Shown here piece after piece: positions 12,401-18,205 of a DNA stretch of 64,000 nt. Numbering within the stretch: the stretch's first letter is position 1; the number at the start of each line of letters is the position of its first letter. The stretch comes from Zootoca vivipara (Eukaryota). Location: the NCBI RefSeq assembly GCF_963506605.1, contig NC_083288.1:44516001-44580000 (forward strand). Reading direction: 5' to 3'. The position numbers were made by a program.

Positions 12401-15400
12401 CCTCTCTCTATTTCTTCCTTCCTCCCCTCCCTCTTCCATCCTTAATAAAATACTGGGGGGGGGCAGATAAGCCCCACATAGAAAGCCCATCAAAATGGGG
12501 GGGGTGTGACTCTTTCAAATACAGTATTTACCAGTAATTGGGGGGGGGGAGGCACATAGGCCTCTAGGAGCTGGCTGCTATGCCTAGGAGTAGGACAATT
12601 CAAGGAAGCAGAATGATGCATATGCTATGGTAATATATCAATGGAATCATAGAATTGTAGTCGGAAGGGCCCACAAGGGTCATCTAGTCCAACCCCCTGC
12701 AATGCAGGATTTTTTCCACAAGGTGGGGCTTGAACCCACGACATGGTTGAAATATTATGCTGATATGCAGCAACGCCTCGGAGCCGTCGTGACTGCGGCC
12801 GTGCCTTGCCTCGCCCTCGCCCGCCCTGCCCCCCCTCTCGCCTGCCCAACCCTCCCGTCCTCTTGCTGCAGAGTTCCAGCATCACAGCATCACCCAGAGG
12901 CACCCACAAATATGAGTTATCCCTCTCCCTATTTCTTCCTTCCTTCCCCCCCTCTTCCATCCTTAATAAAATACTGGGGGGGGGCAGATAAGCCCCACAT
13001 AGAAAGCCCATCAACATGGGGGGGGGAATGACTCTTTCAAATACGGTATTTACTAGTAATTGTGGGGGGGGGAGAGAGGCATCTAGGCCTCTAGGAGTTG
13101 GCTGCTATGCCTAGGAGTAGGACAATTCAAGAAAGCAGAATGATGCATATGCTATGGCAATATATCAATAGAATCATAGAATTGTAGTCGGAAGGGACCA
13201 CAAGGGTCATCTAGTCCAACCCCCTGCAATGCAGGGATTTTTTTCCTAAGGTGGGGCTTGAACCCACAACATGGTTGAAATATTATGCTGATATGCAGCA
13301 ATGCCTCAGAGCCGTCGTGACTGCGGCCGTGCCTTGCCCCGCTCTTGCCCGCCCTGTCACCCCCTCTCGCCTGCCCGACCCTCCAGTCCTCTCCAGCCAA
13401 GCAGGGTAGCCGCCGCCGCTGCCAGCCCCAGAAGCACAAGGTGGCCGCCGCCGCCGCCACGATGTCGTCAGGCCAGCTGGCCCTGTAGCCCCGCCCATGT
13501 TCCCACTTTGTGGCCCCGCCCCTGAATGACCATGGCTTGCCCCCCCCCCCTAGTTTTGATCCTGGCTACGCCCCTGCTTGAATTGTAAACTTTGGGGCAA
13601 GGACTGTCTTATTGAGCTCTTCAAGCTGCTCCAGAAGAATATTCTTGGCCGAATAAAGAGCTAATACTGCCCTCATAAATAAATGTGGGGCGAGACGTAG
13701 CAAAAGCTATCTGGGTTCAGACAAACCATCCAATTTGAGAGTCTTGCGTTCTGCAGTAGCCTAGCAGATGCCTCTTATGAAGCTTACGAAGCAGGCCATA
13801 ATAGCAACAGCCCTCCCAAGCTGCTGCTCCAGTTATGCCACTGGTACTTGGGAGATAGACTGCTTCTGAACATGGAGGTTTCATTTGGCAGTGGTGGCTA
13901 ACAGCCACCGCTGACTCTCCTCTGCCACACAATTCGTCAAATCTCCTTTTAGACTTCTCTAACCAGGTGACGACATCACCACCTCTCGCGGCAGGGTATC
14001 ACTTATTCTTTTTGCATATCAAAACTGCTCCTAGTGCAGCTGCGACTGAAGGGGCAAGTGGGATAAAAATGAAACACACAGGTCTTTCATCTCCTCGAAT
14101 GAATGTTTTTATTTGGGTAGCTTGTTTCGTTTTGAGCTTATTTCATGTTAGTGACTCGGGAGAGCAGTTAGGATTTTTAAAAATAAGTGTTTCGAAACAT
14201 CCAGTTAAAATGAGTCTAAAAGTTCTGAAAATGGCAAGGACTTGTTTTCTTTAAACTCCACCCCCCACCCTAGCACCATTTCTAAAGACAGAATCAACGC
14301 ACAGCATCATTGTTAAAAGGGGATTTCTACAACTACAGGCCGCACATTCCGGCTTCATTCACAAAACTGGCTATACCAAGGGTTGTCAGGCTGGTCCCTA
14401 CCAACCACTAGTGGGCATTTCAAGAATCTAGGTGGGCGGTAGGGGGTTCTATGGCACAAGCTGAATCCTCCTCCCATCGAGCACTGGTGGGCAGTAAGGA
14501 AATATTACCATCAAGAAAGATGTATTAGTGGGAGGTAGGTATAAAAAGGTTGACTACCCCTTGGCTACACGATGGAGGGCTGCTCAAAGCTTTGCAGCTG
14601 TGCTTGACAGCTTCTTTGCTCCTGCAGTCTGATGTAAGTGACTGGAGGTTTGCCGAGGACCTGCTGGGCCAACCATAGCACCTGGCGGGTTCCATTCGCC
14701 TTGATGGGCCACACAAGGCAGGATCCTGCTCTAATGCACAGCAAGTCTTTCATCTACAAATGGGTCCAGCGGGGGAGTCCCGCCTGCAGAGGAAGCGACT
14801 GCGTCGTCCAATACTTCTCACAACAACAACAACAACAAAAGTCCTTAACTTTAAAACACAACAGACAAAATTCGCAACAGGTTTGGACTAATTCCTACCC
14901 TCCCTCCCTCCTTTTTAAAAGGTTAACACTTTTCTGCAAGGCAACTACGCCCACAACAGCTGTCCCCTTTCTGAGAATGCTTCAAAACGAGGCCGTGCTC
15001 CTCATGGCTTTTCCTCAAGTTCCTCATCCGCCGTCAAAAGGTTTTCCTCGTCTTCCAGATCCAAGTCCTCCCTCGACTCCATGGTGCCTTGCGAGGAGGG
15101 CAGGTCTCCCAGAGAGAGCCTCCAGTCTTGCGGGACGAGGTGGCGATTCTTTCGGATGAAGGTCAGCATCTTCACGTTGGCCGGCGAGAGGTTCGTGGGT
15201 TTCCCCCTGTCTGCCAATGAACCGGTGCCCCCGGGGACATCCTCGGAGGGCACCGACGTGGGTGGGCACCCGAAATGGAACAGGGCCACCTTGAAGAGGG
15301 CCGGCCAGACCCCCATTTTCCCCTGCCAGTACAGCATGGGGTCAGCGTTCTCCCCGATGTGGTCCACATTGTCGTGGAGATACTCCTCCATCTCCCGCAG

Positions 15401-18205
15401 GGCCGCCGCCGCCCCTCCCTCGGATGCCAGGCCCATGGCGGGGTCGCTCTTGGTAATCGCCCGCCAGCGCTTCATGGTGAACTGCCACGCTGCCGAGCCG
15501 GGGGGTCCGCTGCTGCTGCTGGACTGCTGCGGGGACGAGCGCCCCATCGGGGAGAACTCGGCGTCGGGCCCCGGAGGCACATAGGACCTGGTGGCCAAGT
15601 CAAGGATGTGCTCCCTCAGCATGGCCGCATCGCCCGTGTCGGCACCGCCCAGCTTCATGGTGGTGATATCCCTGAAGCGGGGGTCGAGGAAGGCGGCCAC
15701 CCGGCACATGAGGGTGCCCTTCATCTCGCTCAGCTGGTTTTGGGCTTCCAGGCAGTCCAGGGCCTGTGTGGTGAGGTGGGCCGCCGTGTTGTTGTTCTCC
15801 TGGTAGTACCTGGTCCTCAAGGCCCGCAGCTGCTCCTCCAGGAACCACAGCATAGGGAGAGCCTGGCAGAGAGTGGCGTCTGGGCGGGTGACCAGTGTGG
15901 CGGCATCCTCAAAGGGCTTGAGAATCTCCACCAGACACTTCACCACCTTCCAGTCCGCCGGCGTCAGGTGCAGCAAGGCGGCCTCCTCGTCTTGCTCGAA
16001 GATGGCGCTGACGGCTTGCCGCTCCCGGTAGAGGCTCTCCAGCATCCGCAGTGTGGAGTTGGATCTCCGGGGAGGCTCTTGCCCCACCGGCTGCCGGTGT
16101 GAGCCCAGAATGGCCTGCGCCTCCAGCAGGCGGCGCCGGACCGCCGTTGAGTGCTTGTAGCGAGTACAGATCCTTCGGGATGTCTTCAGTAGCCGGTCGA
16201 CGTGGGCGTCGGCCGCCAAGAAGGCCTTCACCACCAGCTTCAGGCAACGCGCCAGGCAAGGGACGTACTTGAGGCGCAGCTCGCGCACAGCCTTTGCAGT
16301 GTTGGCCCCGTCGTCCAGGACCACGCCCCCGGTCTTTAGGTCGTAGAGCCAGTCTTGCAGCACCTCCCTCAGCTTGTGGCAGATGTTCTCGGCTGAGCAC
16401 GGCCCCTCGAAGGCACACACCGACAAGGTGGCGTGATGCCGCGAGAGGACGCCCGCCGACTCGGCCACCCAGTGCCCCGTCACCGACATGTAGGAGACCA
16501 TCTGCCGGCCCGACCAGGTGTCTATGGCAATGTGGACTGTACGGCCCACGCTGCCCACCACCGCTTGGCGTACAGCTCGGGACACCACCTTGGACAGCTC
16601 AGGCACAGCCTTCGTGGCGAAGAACGCGCGCCCAGGGATTTTCCAGCGGGGCTGGGCGGTGGCCATCAGCCGGCGGAACCCATCGCTTTCCACGTACGAA
16701 GGGGGCTGCATGTCCATGGCAAGCATCCAGGCCGTTTCCGAAGCCAACTGGATGGCTGCCGAGTGTGTTGGCGGGTAGTACGGCTGGTTCCTCTCCTGGC
16801 GTGTGGGCTGGAAGGCGGGTGGCTCGGTGACCACGATGGTCGGGCCGTGCGGCCTCTCCTTCAGGGGCATCAGCGGCGAAGGAGGGACCACCGCGACACC
16901 CGGCAAGTGGAGCCCGTGGTGCACCTTCAGGTGTTTGTGGAGGGCCGTGGTGCCAGGGCGGGTGCCCCCGTCCTTGCCCCTGCGCACCCGCTTCTGGCAA
17001 GTGCTGCAGACGGCCACACATGGCTCCCTGGGATCCAGGGTGAAATAATCCCACACGGCTGAGGTGGTTTTCTTGGGGGCATGCGTGGGGATGCCGTCCA
17101 CCACCAGTACTTCCCGGTCGCGCCCGCGCTTGTGATGGTGGTGGTGGGGAGAGGCCGAGACGTGCGTCATGGGGGTGAAGAAATGCACCATCTCAATGCC
17201 CGCCCTGCCCATGGTGCCGGCGGGCATGTAGGTCCCTGGAGGAGCAGACTGTGGGTGGAGGACGTGGGGCGGGGAGAAAGACACTCTCTCAATGACCTCG
17301 TCTCCATCCTCGTCCTCCTCCTTCTTGAGGTACGAGAGTATCTCTTGAGCCTCAGGGTGGCCGGGCTCCTTCGCCCCCAGCTGGTTGGACGCCTCCGGAG
17401 AGAATGCGCCCAACTCTGCCGCATCCTCGTCCTCCTCGTCTTCTTTCTCCTTCAGGTAGGAGAAGAGGTCATGCACGCTTGTCGTCGACGGGCCACACTC
17501 CTCCTCCTCCTTCATTGCTGGCTGCAAAGAAACCGCTGGGGCAGCCATGACGGGGAATGGTTCACGGGAAACGCCGGTCTCCGGCGCACCTGCGAAGTGA
17601 GGCTCCTGGAGGTGGATGGCCATGCCTCTCCGGGGAAAAGTCGCCAGCTGGGCTCTTCTGCCCCGGCCGCGCCTTGGCATCATGGCAGAGGAGCCCTGGA
17701 AAGGGGAGGAAAAAGAACACAAGTGTTTCATTCCAGGCAGGTTCCCTCTGATCACTCAGAAGCCCAGCAGCTTCTTTTAAAAGCAGACGCTCAAATTCAG
17801 GAAACAAAGGGCAACGTGCTGTCCCGCCTTCCTCTCCCCTCCCATACCCACAACTTTCCACACCGCAAGAGTGGGACATCTCTGTCAGCTCAAGGTTCAC
17901 GTTCCTTTCTGGGCAATCTTTCATGGAACGTAACTTCTGATAGCCTATTAGATGTGTTCCAAAACTGTTACTGCTTTGCTTTTGTTCTTCTCATAGAATT
18001 GTAGCGCTGGGGGGGACCCTGTGGGTCATCTAGTCCAACCTCCTGCAATGCAGGAATCTTGCCCACAGCTGTCCCTGGGTGGGCTCAAACCGCCGACCTT
18101 CTGGTTAACAGGCAGATGCACTGACCCATTGTGCCATTATGTATTTTCTGTTGTTTTTTCTTGTGAAATGCCGTAGATCTTCCGATGAATAGCAGTAGGC
18201 ATATT

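What the first reader, a model, noticed from the sequence alone, without database searches (positions are those of the whole stretch)
15002..17683. Domesticated, apparently catalytically dead hAT transposase (ZBED-like) embedded in a histone/tRNA cluster
Seen: uninterrupted 893-codon GC/CpG-rich ORF with strong acceptor and Kozak, no TIR/TSD. The BED finger is intact and D, D, E are retained (IDTWS, LDDGAN, SVPSE), but the CxxH motif reads CLAR, the RW motif reads RRSNS, and SERxFS reads SEDVPG. Known: the CxxH histidine and the RW tryptophan are needed for hAT hairpin chemistry; ZBED genes are domesticated hATs, and ZBED1/DREF regulates histone H1 and ribosomal protein genes. Inference: a host DNA-binding factor that I cannot match to a mammalian ZBED1/4/6, possibly squamate-specific and poorly described.
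Basis: partly seen in the sequence, partly recalled or inferred. Interest (0 to 1): 0.75.

Follow-up and report, generated by a model that had tools for sequence, protein, structure and literature searches.

The report
Squamate-wide domesticated hAT transposase gene
This is a lizard and snake gene that began as a "jumping gene" enzyme, has lost the residues needed to jump, and has kept its DNA-binding finger almost unchanged, so it is most likely a host DNA-binding regulator that nobody has yet studied.

Summary
Window 15002-17683 (-) is an open 893-codon frame, 917 codons stop to stop against at most 441 in 500 shuffles. It encodes a BED zinc finger plus a Hermes-like hAT transposase core (profile E 6e-56; Foldseek E 1.3e-14). 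No convincing TIR/TSD or second copy was found. It lies among H2A/H2B/H4 and tRNA genes.

Full-length orthologues (67-95% identity) occur in 20 named squamate species, from gecko to snakes. Their gene tree recovers the main squamate groups, which indicates vertical descent from the squamate ancestor. The next relatives in 1.84 billion representatives share at most 38% identity.

Mapped onto Hermes, the window protein keeps D-D-E. H268 is Arg, W319 is Ser and SERxFS is gone. Across 24 orthologues no row has W319, and 6 carry non-acidic residues at a catalytic Asp. The BED finger is nearly invariant. So catalysis is not under selection and DNA binding is.

The NCBI name "ZBED6-like" is a similarity label, not orthology. 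The protein has one BED domain and falls outside the multi-BED clade. Orthology to ZBEDX/ZBED6CL and presence outside Squamata stayed untested.

Verdict: a new, uncharacterised member of the known ZBED kind.

The parts
15002..17683 (-). Single-exon coding sequence, 893 codons plus stop TGA (15002-15004), of the hAT-derived BED-finger protein (P0001)
   Evidence: 100% length match to squamate orthologues
17696..17720 (-). Pyrimidine tract and CAG splice acceptor. The exon would begin at 17695, 12 nt before the ATG, which implies an unlocated 5' non-coding exon upstream
   Evidence: sequence read; inferred, no RNA data
17066..17683 (-). N-terminal region aa 1-206, predicted disordered and acidic. 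It holds two copies of a (L/F)SYLK-acidic...FSP unit (aa 67-98 and 108-139)
   Evidence: AF2 pLDDT about 30-40, with short helices at 75-78 and 115-120; almost no invariant columns; no Pfam or Atlas look-alike; repeat read
16916..17062 (-). BED zinc finger aa 208-256 (Cys226, Cys229, His251, His256), the most conserved segment of the protein
   Evidence: Pfam E 1e-5; ZBED2 BED structure 2djr E 0.0018; invariant runs 204-215 and 232-256 in 22 orthologues; pLDDT about 90
15086..16786 (-). Hermes-like transposase core aa 300-866: RNase H-like fold split by an all-alpha insertion domain, then the C-terminal hAT region
   Evidence: profile to Hermes E 6e-56; AF2 pLDDT mostly above 90; Foldseek Hermes 4d1q E 1.3e-14, TM 0.65 on the target
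15146..15391 (-). hAT C-terminal dimerisation region aa 765-846
   Evidence: Pfam PF05699, 20.0 bits against a cut-off of 21.4; block 781-810 is 63% invariant
16520..16522 (-). Codon GAC, Asp388 = Hermes D180 (kept here; Thr in Salvator)
16313..16315 (-). Codon GAC, Asp457 = Hermes D248 (kept here; Gly, His or Asn in 5 of 24 orthologues)
16247..16249 (-). Codon CGT, Arg479 at the Hermes H268 (CxxH) position
16061..16063 (-). Codon TCC, Ser541 at the Hermes W319 position
15242..15244 (-). Codon GAG, Glu814 = Hermes E572. The following R-x-F-S is replaced by D-V-P-G

Best explanation
The ORF is a host gene derived from an Ac-type hAT DNA transposase. It was immobilised no later than the common ancestor of living squamates and has been inherited vertically since.

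Proposed mechanism, with shown and inferred steps marked:
- The single BED zinc finger binds a fixed DNA motif. Its near-invariance is shown; the binding is inferred.
- The Hermes-like core and C-terminal hAT region survive as a folded scaffold for dimer or oligomer formation. The fold is shown; oligomerisation is inferred from Hermes, Ac and ZBED1.
- The disordered acidic N-terminus, with two conserved SYLK-acidic motifs, recruits partners or activates transcription (inferred).
- DNA cleavage and hairpin chemistry are no longer used. Loss of the motifs and drift of the triad are shown; inactivity itself is inferred.

It therefore works like ZBED6 or ZBED1: a transposase turned into a sequence-specific regulator. 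It is a separate gene from those two.
For: The ORF length is far beyond chance, and GC3 is 0.82. BED and hAT domains are present. The family profile matches Hermes at E 6e-56. The AF2 core has pLDDT above 90, and the best Foldseek hits are 11 Hermes chains.

One search returned 23 proteins: 20 named, all squamates from gecko to snakes, and 3 unnamed. Identity is 67-95%. All but two partial ones cover at least 95% of the query, and each is on one contig or none listed.

The gene tree of 24 orthologues recovers Serpentes (6 of 6), Lacertoidea (4 of 4), Scincoidea, and pleurodont and acrodont iguanians, each with starred or high support.

A long stem (0.79-0.81 changes per column) is followed by short internal branches.

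Conservation in 22 full-length orthologues: 276 of 893 columns are invariant. The BED blocks are 73-87% invariant. The blocks holding the catalytic motifs are 10-20% invariant.

Catalytic positions in 24 orthologues:
- D180 column: 23 Asp, 1 Thr.
- D248 column: 19 Asp, 2 Gly, 2 His, 1 Asn.
- H268 column: 20 Arg, 4 His.
- W319 column: 23 Ser, 1 Ala, no Trp.
- E572 column: 19 Glu and 4 Asp of 23.

In 61 other family members Trp is kept in 59, His in 49 and the SERxFS Phe in 50. Among 19 squamate orthologues the counts are 0, 3 and 0.

Literature passages read in PMC4763223: Hermes H268 lies in the active site and its mutation severely impairs catalysis, and W182 and W319 are needed for efficient hairpin formation.

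There is no convincing TIR/TSD and no second copy in the window.

A precedent exists. The ZBED6 BED domains are about 100% identical across 26 placental mammals, and the gene is intronless and single-copy (PMC2780926 passages).
Against: No DNA binding, expression or oligomerisation was measured.

dN/dS could not be computed, because no orthologue coding DNA is available in these tools. Purifying selection is inferred from open frames and protein conservation only.

The window's own protein keeps D-D-E and W182. In the yeast Kat1 relative a CxxH mutant still nicks, and the W319-equivalent mutant still makes hairpins. A residual nuclease activity in lacertids is therefore not excluded.

Synteny across squamates was not testable. 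Single-copy status rests on cluster and contig counts, not on genome searches.

The 5' exon and promoter are unlocated.
Confidence: 0.8

Rival explanations
1. It is not a squamate-stem domestication. It is the fast-evolved squamate orthologue, or an old paralogue, of an earlier vertebrate ZBED gene of the ZBED6 / ZBEDX / ZBED6CL (C7orf29) group.
For: It sits in a well-supported 29-row clade (98-99 support) with other vertebrate-type BED-hAT proteins. These include two 2-BED proteins of about 900 aa (P0028, P0032), an architecture like that described for frog ZBEDX (Hayward et al. passages). The long stem branch (about 0.8) could hide an older orthology.
Against: The next relatives share at most 38% identity. 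One of those groups is itself a gecko paralogue, found alongside the true gecko orthologue. The window protein has one BED domain, not two. No LRR-type ORF (LRRC61 marks the ZBEDX locus) is among the 96 ORFs of at least 100 aa scanned in the window. That is weak evidence, since only 64 kb and long ORFs were covered.
Confidence: 0.3
2. It is a domesticated but still catalytic nuclease or recombinase, like yeast Kat1 or RAG1, which nicks or cuts host DNA at specific sites.
For: The window protein and 18 of 24 orthologues keep acidic residues at all three triad positions, and W182 is kept in 20 of 24. The core fold is well conserved. A Kat1 CxxH mutant still nicks.
Against: Six of 24 orthologues carry Thr, Gly, His or Asn at a catalytic Asp, although the rest of the protein stays conserved. 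W319 and the SERxFS Arg and Phe are absent in all. The blocks around the active-site motifs are among the least conserved parts of the core.
Confidence: 0.07
3. It is an autonomous or recently active hAT transposon copy that happens to lie in the histone cluster.
For: The transposase architecture is complete and D-D-E is present. One of two weak TIR/TSD candidates (14822/17986) brackets the ORF.
Against: That candidate is an AAC simple repeat with 2 mismatches in 11, within the range seen in shuffles. The hairpin motifs are lost. Orthologues follow the species tree across a crown group of about 190 My (age from the abstract of PMC12629976 in the listing). A splice acceptor sits 12 nt before the ATG.
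Confidence: 0.01
4. Its position is functional: it regulates the surrounding replication-dependent histone genes, as ZBED1/hDREF regulates histone H1.
For: It lies between H2B/H4 genes and tRNA genes. ZBED1 activates the histone H1 promoter (review PMC7471704 passages).
Against: There is no evidence beyond adjacency. The ZBED1 motif is not enriched in the window: 3 matches with up to 1 mismatch against 4.8 expected. This protein's own motif is unknown. Conservation of the location in other squamates was not testable.
Confidence: 0.05

Closest known systems
ZBED6 (placental mammals)
   Same: Both are intronless coding sequences of about 900-980 codons derived from an Ac-type hAT transposase. 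Both combine BED, a transposase core and a hATC region. In both the BED finger is almost invariant across a whole clade, and both are single-copy host genes (PMC2780926 passages). NCBI names the squamate proteins 'ZBED6-like'.
   Different: ZBED6 has two BED domains, lies in intron 1 of ZC3H11A and is reported as unique to placentals. This gene has one BED domain and lies in a histone/tRNA cluster. A 980-aa 2-BED representative with ZBED6-like architecture (P0042; its identity as ZBED6 is not verified) falls in another clade. Forcing it together with the squamate genes is rejected (AU p 2.8e-6; groups were named after seeing the tree).
ZBED1 / hDREF
   Same: One BED finger plus a transposase core plus hATC. 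Arg replaces the CxxH histidine in a named rodent ZBED1 as well. ZBED1 acts as a DNA-binding transcription regulator.
   Different: Identity is only 29% over the core (E 1.8e-26). ZBED1 keeps W319 and the R-x-F of SERxFS. Hayward et al. list a separate lizard ZBED1 near DHRSX. The AU test did not formally reject a sister grouping (p 0.099, long ZBED1 branch).
ZBEDX (frog) / ZBED6CL = C7orf29 (mammals)
   Same: Members of the ZBED6-related group of domesticated hATs, poorly characterised, with no function assigned.
   Different: ZBEDX is described with two BED domains and C7orf29 with none. Both lie upstream of LRRC61. No named sequence of either was available here, so relatedness could not be tested directly.
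Hermes transposase (Musca domestica), active hAT
   Same: Same fold and domain order (profile E 6e-56; Foldseek TM 0.65 on the target). The D180, D248, E572, C265 and W182 equivalents are present in the window protein.
   Different: The H268, W319, R573 and F575 equivalents are replaced. There is no TIR/TSD. A 206-aa disordered acidic N-terminal extension is present.
Gecko 'ZBED6-like' paralogue (Sphaerodactylus, Heteronotia, Paroedura: P0027, P0174, P0175)
   Same: It belongs to the same 29-row clade, is also a single-BED protein of about 830-860 aa, and also has Arg at the H268 position.
   Different: It shares only about 30-35% identity. It keeps W319 but has Ser at D180 and Lys at E572. 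It was seen only in geckos, which also carry the true orthologue (Eublepharis P0007).

Membership tests
hAT transposase superfamily (protein fold) | N-terminal BED zinc finger | tested here: met
   PF02892 at aa 208-256, E 1e-5, 25.9 bits against a cut-off of 20.6; Cys226, Cys229, His251 and His256 nearly invariant in the family
hAT transposase superfamily (protein fold) | RNase H-like catalytic domain interrupted by an all-alpha insertion domain, alignable to Hermes | tested here: met
   Profile to Hermes 2bw3/4d1q/8edg/6dww E about 6e-56; AF2 model and Foldseek 4d1q_G E 1.3e-14
hAT transposase superfamily (protein fold) | C-terminal hAT dimerisation region | tested here: inconclusive
   PF05699 scores 20.0 bits, just under the 21.4 cut-off. 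The region is nevertheless covered by the Hermes alignment and partly invariant
Active hAT transposon (mobile element) | Terminal inverted repeats with 8-bp target-site duplication | tested here: not met
   Two low-complexity candidates only; 50 shuffles gave mean 0.3 and maximum 2; the repeat finder gave only chance-level pairs
Active hAT transposon (mobile element) | Intact catalytic set D-D-E plus CxxH His, RW Trp and SERxFS | tested here: not met
   D, D and E are kept, but His is Arg, Trp is Ser, and R-x-F-S is D-V-P-G. In contrast, 19 of 52 family rows keep D-D-E plus His plus Trp
Active hAT transposon (mobile element) | Multiple copies per genome | tested here: inconclusive
   No second copy in the 64-kb window; each orthologue cluster is on one contig or none listed; no whole-genome search was possible
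ZBED-type domesticated transposase gene | Orthologues in many species that follow the species tree | tested here: met
   20 named squamate species; the gene tree recovers the major squamate groups
ZBED-type domesticated transposase gene | Conserved genomic position (synteny) | not testable with these tools
   No vertebrate genome collection is on hand, and the collections of contigs are closed or prokaryotic
ZBED-type domesticated transposase gene | Purifying selection (dN/dS well below 1) | not testable with these tools
   Only orthologue proteins are available. Indirect support: open frames in all, 276 of 893 invariant columns, and a BED finger 73-87% invariant per block
ZBED6 orthologue | Two BED domains; gene inside intron 1 of ZC3H11A; placental mammals | tested here: not met
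   One BED domain. Neighbours are histone and tRNA genes. Grouping with the 2-BED 980-aa representative is rejected, although that representative's name is unverified. Definition taken
ZBED1 orthologue | High similarity to ZBED1; locus next to DHRSX | tested here: inconclusive
   29% identity to Octodon ZBED1. The tree places ZBED1 far away, but AU p is 0.099. Hayward et al. list a separate lizard ZBED1. DHRSX was not searched for
ZBEDX / ZBED6CL orthologue | Locus upstream of LRRC61; two BED domains (ZBEDX) or none (C7orf29) | tested here: inconclusive
   One BED domain. No LRR hit among the 96 window ORFs of at least 100 aa. No named ZBEDX or ZBED6CL sequence was available to compare

The most novel reading that the evidence does not exclude
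This is an independent, squamate-stem (or lepidosaur-stem) domestication of a hAT transposase. It would make the gene a seventh-type vertebrate ZBED regulator, absent from mammals and birds, whose BED finger has been frozen for about 190 million years. Its His-to-Arg change at the CxxH motif repeats a substitution also seen in ZBED1, in a ZBED6-like 2-BED protein and in a gecko paralogue. That hints at a recurrent route by which hAT transposases are disarmed while keeping DNA contact.
Probability: 0.35. Interest if true: 0.6.

Novelty: new member of a known kind. Interest (0 to 1): 0.45.

Why it matters
Domesticated transposases are a recurring source of vertebrate transcription factors, but the studied cases are mostly mammalian. 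This gene is a clade-wide example in squamates that no located paper describes. Its pattern is clean: an almost frozen DNA-binding finger, a kept fold, and a catalytic pocket decaying in different ways in different lineages.

That pattern gives a natural experiment on which parts of a transposase a host keeps. It also gives squamate biology a candidate lineage-specific regulator that can be tested directly, by finding the BED motif, the targets and the knock-out phenotype in Anolis.

It also shows that the database name "ZBED6-like" should not be read as orthology.

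Tried and rejected
- Profile search with eight relatives to get names. It returned only 6 proteins: the gecko paralogues, one Eublepharis fusion protein and one loach protein.
- Region-restricted search over aa 300-720. It added only one unnamed protein and Octodon ZBED1. The taxa of P0025, P0026, P0028, P0030, P0032 and P0033 therefore stay unknown.
It was repeated with a faster alignment and with an HMM-guided alignment.
- A single-sequence PDB search found only the ZBED2 BED domain. 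Hermes appeared only with a family profile.
- An ESM Atlas search on the N-terminal 206 aa gave a best score of 0.80, which is chance level.
- The hDRE (ZBED1) motif scan in the window showed no enrichment.
- Literature. Searches for ZBED with squamate, lizard or snake terms, for 'ZBED6-like' (0 papers) and for host-transposase fusion with Anolis found no description of this gene. Neither did passages of PMC7786948, PMC10027918, the bioRxiv version of Cosby et al. and PMC3014272. Supplementary tables of those papers were not opened and could list it.
- Complex prediction for a homodimer was not run. Two copies of the whole core (2 x 577 aa) exceed the 1000-residue limit, and a fragment would cut the fold. 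Oligomerisation therefore stays an inference.
- The closed collections (metagenome and viral contigs) and vertebrate genomes were not searched.

Full report
1. THE OBSERVATION

On the minus strand, window 15002-17731 is open for 909 codons from the first ATG, and 917 codons stop to stop. In 500 shuffles of the same 2.75 kb the longest open frame averaged 200 codons and never exceeded 441.

The ORF has GC 0.644, CpG o/e 0.71 and GC3 0.82. The 2-kb flanks have GC 0.44-0.50 and CpG o/e 0.43-0.45.

Upstream of ATG 17683 there is a pyrimidine tract ending in CAG at 17698-17696, so an exon would start at 17695. The more distal ATG 17731 then lies in the intron. Named orthologues start at the same MMPRRG. 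The 5' exon was not located.

2. WHAT THE PROTEIN IS

Pfam finds a BED zinc finger at aa 208-256 (E 1e-5). It also finds a hAT C-terminal dimerisation region at aa 765-846, just below the curated cut-off at 20.0 against 21.4 bits.

A single-sequence search of the PDB found only the ZBED2 BED domain. A profile of 33 family members matched the Hermes transposase over its whole catalytic region (E 6e-56).

An AlphaFold2 model built on an 80-row alignment has pLDDT above 90 for the BED finger and most of aa 300-860. Residues 1-206 are predicted disordered. The best Foldseek matches in the PDB are 11 Hermes chains (E down to 1.3e-14, TM 0.65 normalised to the target), followed at a distance by P-element and IS transposases.

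3. CATALYTIC RESIDUES

The chain index of 2bw3 plus 75 gives Hermes numbering. This was checked against the full-length chain 8edg. The window protein maps as follows:

- D388 = D180
- W390 = W182
- D457 = D248
- C476 = C265
- R479 at H268
- R540 = R318
- S541 at W319
- E814 = E572
- D-V-P-G where Hermes has R-x-F-S

The functional weight of these residues comes from passages of PMC4763223. Hermes H268 is in the active site and its mutation severely impairs catalysis. W182 and W319 are needed for efficient hairpin formation. In the yeast relative Kat1 a CxxH mutant nicks but cannot form hairpins, whereas the W319-equivalent mutant still can.

4. ORTHOLOGUES

The word-indexed search returned 23 proteins. 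Twenty are named and all of those are squamates: Podarcis raffonei (95%), Rhineura, Liasis, Tiliqua, Hemicordylus, Eublepharis, Pogona, Phrynosoma, Crotalus, Sceloporus, Salvator, two Anolis, Pseudonaja, Phrynocephalus, Thamnophis, Lerista, Naja, Varanus (partial) and Erythrolamprus (partial). Three are unnamed.

Identity is 67-95%, and each 90% cluster sits on one contig or none listed. The window probably comes from a lacertid (inferred from the 95% match and).

The exhaustive HMMER scan of 1.84 billion representatives found 5336 relatives at E up to 1e-3. After the squamate cluster (72-76% identity) the next best is only 38% identical.

A careful IQ-TREE of the 24 orthologues with four outgroups recovers these groups as supported clades:

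- snakes, 6 of 6, with python, then viper, then elapids and colubrids
- Lacertoidea: window + Podarcis, then Rhineura, then Salvator
- Scincoidea
- pleurodont iguanians
- acrodont iguanians

Deep nodes are unresolved, but nothing conflicts with the species tree. This is the pattern of vertical descent from the squamate ancestor. The crown age of about 190 My is taken from the abstract of PMC12629976 in the listing.

5. WHAT IS CONSERVED AND WHAT IS NOT

In 22 full-length orthologues 276 of 893 columns are invariant. The conservation differs sharply between regions:

- The two longest invariant runs are aa 204-215 and 232-256, both in the BED finger. The BED blocks are 73-87% invariant.
- Blocks 601-630 and 781-810 of the core are 63-70% invariant.
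- The blocks that hold the catalytic motifs are among the least conserved parts of the core: 451-480 at 13%, 511-540 at 10%, and 811-840 at 20%.
- The N-terminal 200 residues have almost no invariant column.

At the mapped positions in 24 orthologues:

- D180 column: 23 Asp, 1 Thr (Salvator).
- D248 column: 19 Asp, 2 Gly (Tiliqua and an unnamed skink-like record), 2 His (Pogona, Phrynocephalus), 1 Asn (Phrynosoma).
- H268 column: 20 Arg, 4 His (Eublepharis, Pogona, Phrynocephalus, one unnamed).
- W319 column: 23 Ser, 1 Ala, no Trp.
- E572 column: 19 Glu and 4 Asp of 23.

Among 61 other family members Trp is present in 59, His in 49, the Arg after E572 in 43 and the Phe in 50. Among 19 squamate orthologues the counts are 0, 3, 0 and 0.

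So the loss of W319 and of SERxFS dates to the stem of the clade. The triad has since drifted independently in several lineages while the rest of the protein stayed constrained. This is direct comparative evidence that catalysis is not what selection maintains.

Arg is encoded by CGT here, one transition from a His codon.

6. NOT A MOBILE ELEMENT

A scan of 4 kb on each side looked for 11-nt TIRs (up to 2 mismatches) with 8-bp TSDs (up to 1 mismatch). It gave 2 candidates, one with a poly-C TSD and one in an AAC simple repeat. Fifty shuffles gave a mean of 0.3 and a maximum of 2. The general inverted-repeat search gave only chance-level pairs. tblastn found no other copy in the window.

7. RELATION TO KNOWN ZBED GENES

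Two trees agree: FastTree with 84 rows and IQ-TREE with 58 rows on an HMM-guided alignment. In both, the squamate orthologues form a 100%-supported clade on a long stem of 0.79-0.81. That clade lies inside a 29-row clade with 98-99 support.

The 29-row clade also contains:

- a gecko-only paralogue group, also named 'ZBED6-like' by NCBI
- proteins in which the same transposase is fused to SCAN, KRAB, C2H2, RING or B-box domains
- two 2-BED proteins of about 900 aa

A separate clade holds multi-BED proteins of 980-1543 aa. These are ZBED6- and ZBED4-like architectures, but their names are not verified.

A named rodent ZBED1 sits far away on a long branch and shares 29% identity with the core.

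The AU tests used groups chosen after seeing the tree. They reject a clade of the squamate genes with the 980-aa 2-BED protein (p 2.8e-6) and with the whole multi-BED clade (p 0.008). They do not reject a clade with ZBED1 (p 0.099).

Against ZBED1 and ZBED4 orthology there is also Table 1 of Hayward et al. (PMC3606216, passages read). It lists separate lizard orthologues of ZBED1 (near DHRSX) and ZBED4 (near ALG12). It places ZBED6 in ZC3H11A intron 1 of placentals, and ZBEDX/C7orf29 upstream of LRRC61.

In this window the neighbours are histone genes, tRNA genes, an HNRNPC-like RRM exon, a GPCR ORF and a LINE. I could not obtain named ZBEDX or ZBED6CL sequences or the taxa of the nearest representatives. 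A deep orthology to that gene therefore remains open (rival 1).

8. MECHANISM

Shown:

- an intact, near-invariant BED finger
- a conserved Hermes-like fold
- a degraded catalytic pocket
- a disordered acidic N-terminus carrying two copies of a (L/F)SYLK-acidic...FSP unit, with short predicted helices exactly at the SYLK motifs

Inferred from the family:

- The BED finger binds a specific DNA motif.
- The core and hATC region mediate dimer or oligomer formation, as for Hermes, Ac and ZBED1 (passages).
- The N-terminus is the effector part.

The closest functional analogue is ZBED6. Its BED domains are about 100% identical in 26 placentals, and it acts as a sequence-specific repressor.

A role in regulating the neighbouring histone genes is only a guess. 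The ZBED1 motif is not enriched in the window, with 3 matches against 4.8 expected, and this protein's own motif is unknown.

9. NOVELTY

The proteins exist in public annotation as computer-predicted 'ZBED6-like' entries. I found no paper that describes them, in the searches or the passages. Supplements were not opened.

The gene is a new, uncharacterised member of a well-known kind, the domesticated hAT/ZBED genes. It is not a new kind.

10. WHAT STAYED UNCHECKED

- synteny and copy number in whole genomes
- dN/dS
- expression
- DNA binding
- oligomerisation (no complex prediction was run)
- the names of the nearest non-orthologous relatives
- the closed contig collections

Noticed in passing
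proteins P0027, P0174, P0175 (Sphaerodactylus, Heteronotia, Paroedura): Geckos carry a second, separate 'ZBED6-like' hAT-derived gene. It shares about 30-35% identity with the window protein and has Ser at the D180 column, Arg at H268 and Lys at E572. It looks like another disarmed transposase, seen only in geckos.
   Followed up: partly
family alignment, Hermes H268 column: Arg replaces the CxxH histidine in 7 of 52 rows from at least five separate lineages: the squamate gene, the gecko paralogue, P0050, the 2-BED 980-aa protein P0042 and a named rodent ZBED1. This may be a recurrent substitution in domesticated hATs.
   Followed up: partly
proteins P0031, P0037, P0039, P0044, P0056: Close relatives of this transposase are fused to B-box, SCAN+KRAB+C2H2, SCAN, RING or KRAB domains, so the same hAT lineage has been captured repeatedly. 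P0037 is from the gecko Eublepharis.
   Followed up: no
window 17268-17483 (-), aa 67-98 and 108-139 of the protein: An internal duplication sits in the disordered N-terminus: two units ...(L/F)SYLK(E/K)(K/E)-acidic run-...(A/S)FSP. They share 11 of 26 aligned residues by eye, are present in all orthologues, and AF2 predicts short helices at both SYLK motifs. The function is unknown.
   Followed up: partly
window 12678-12694, 13205-13221, 18024-18040 (-); tRNA-like 18078-18136 (-): Three exact copies of a 17-nt SINE core motif flank the gene in the same orientation, where 0.01 are expected by chance. One is joined to a tRNA-like head about 400 nt upstream of the ATG, inside the presumed intron. 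Two weaker copies lie at 28565 and 55818.
   Followed up: partly
window 21366-21614 and stem-loop 21475-21519 (+): A second histone 3' stem-loop lies 300 nt after the one that ends the H2B gene at 20757-21149. It follows a short stretch that reads like the out-of-frame 3' end of H2B, so it may be a truncated H2B duplicate. The two H4 genes (ending at 6446 and at 26471-26797) gave no stem-loop hit at the Rfam gathering score.
   Followed up: no
window 38229-38546 (-): An exon encodes an RRM (Pfam E 1e-13). Its sequence looks like the N-terminus of HNRNPC or RALY, a name I recalled and did not test.
   Followed up: no
window 51957-53000 (-): A single-exon 348-aa open frame encodes a rhodopsin-family GPCR (7tm_1, E 3.5e-38). 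The subtype was not determined.
   Followed up: no
window 59026-62069 (-): A LINE retrotransposon has long open frames: reverse transcriptase in a 796-aa frame (E 7e-41) and an endonuclease in a 242-aa frame. It may be a young copy.
   Followed up: no
window 6904-6975 (+) and 7332-7403 (-): Two tRNA-Met (CAT) genes with equal Rfam scores lie in opposite orientation 357 nt apart. Two tRNA-Phe genes (44-118, 25518-25590) also have identical scores.
   Followed up: no
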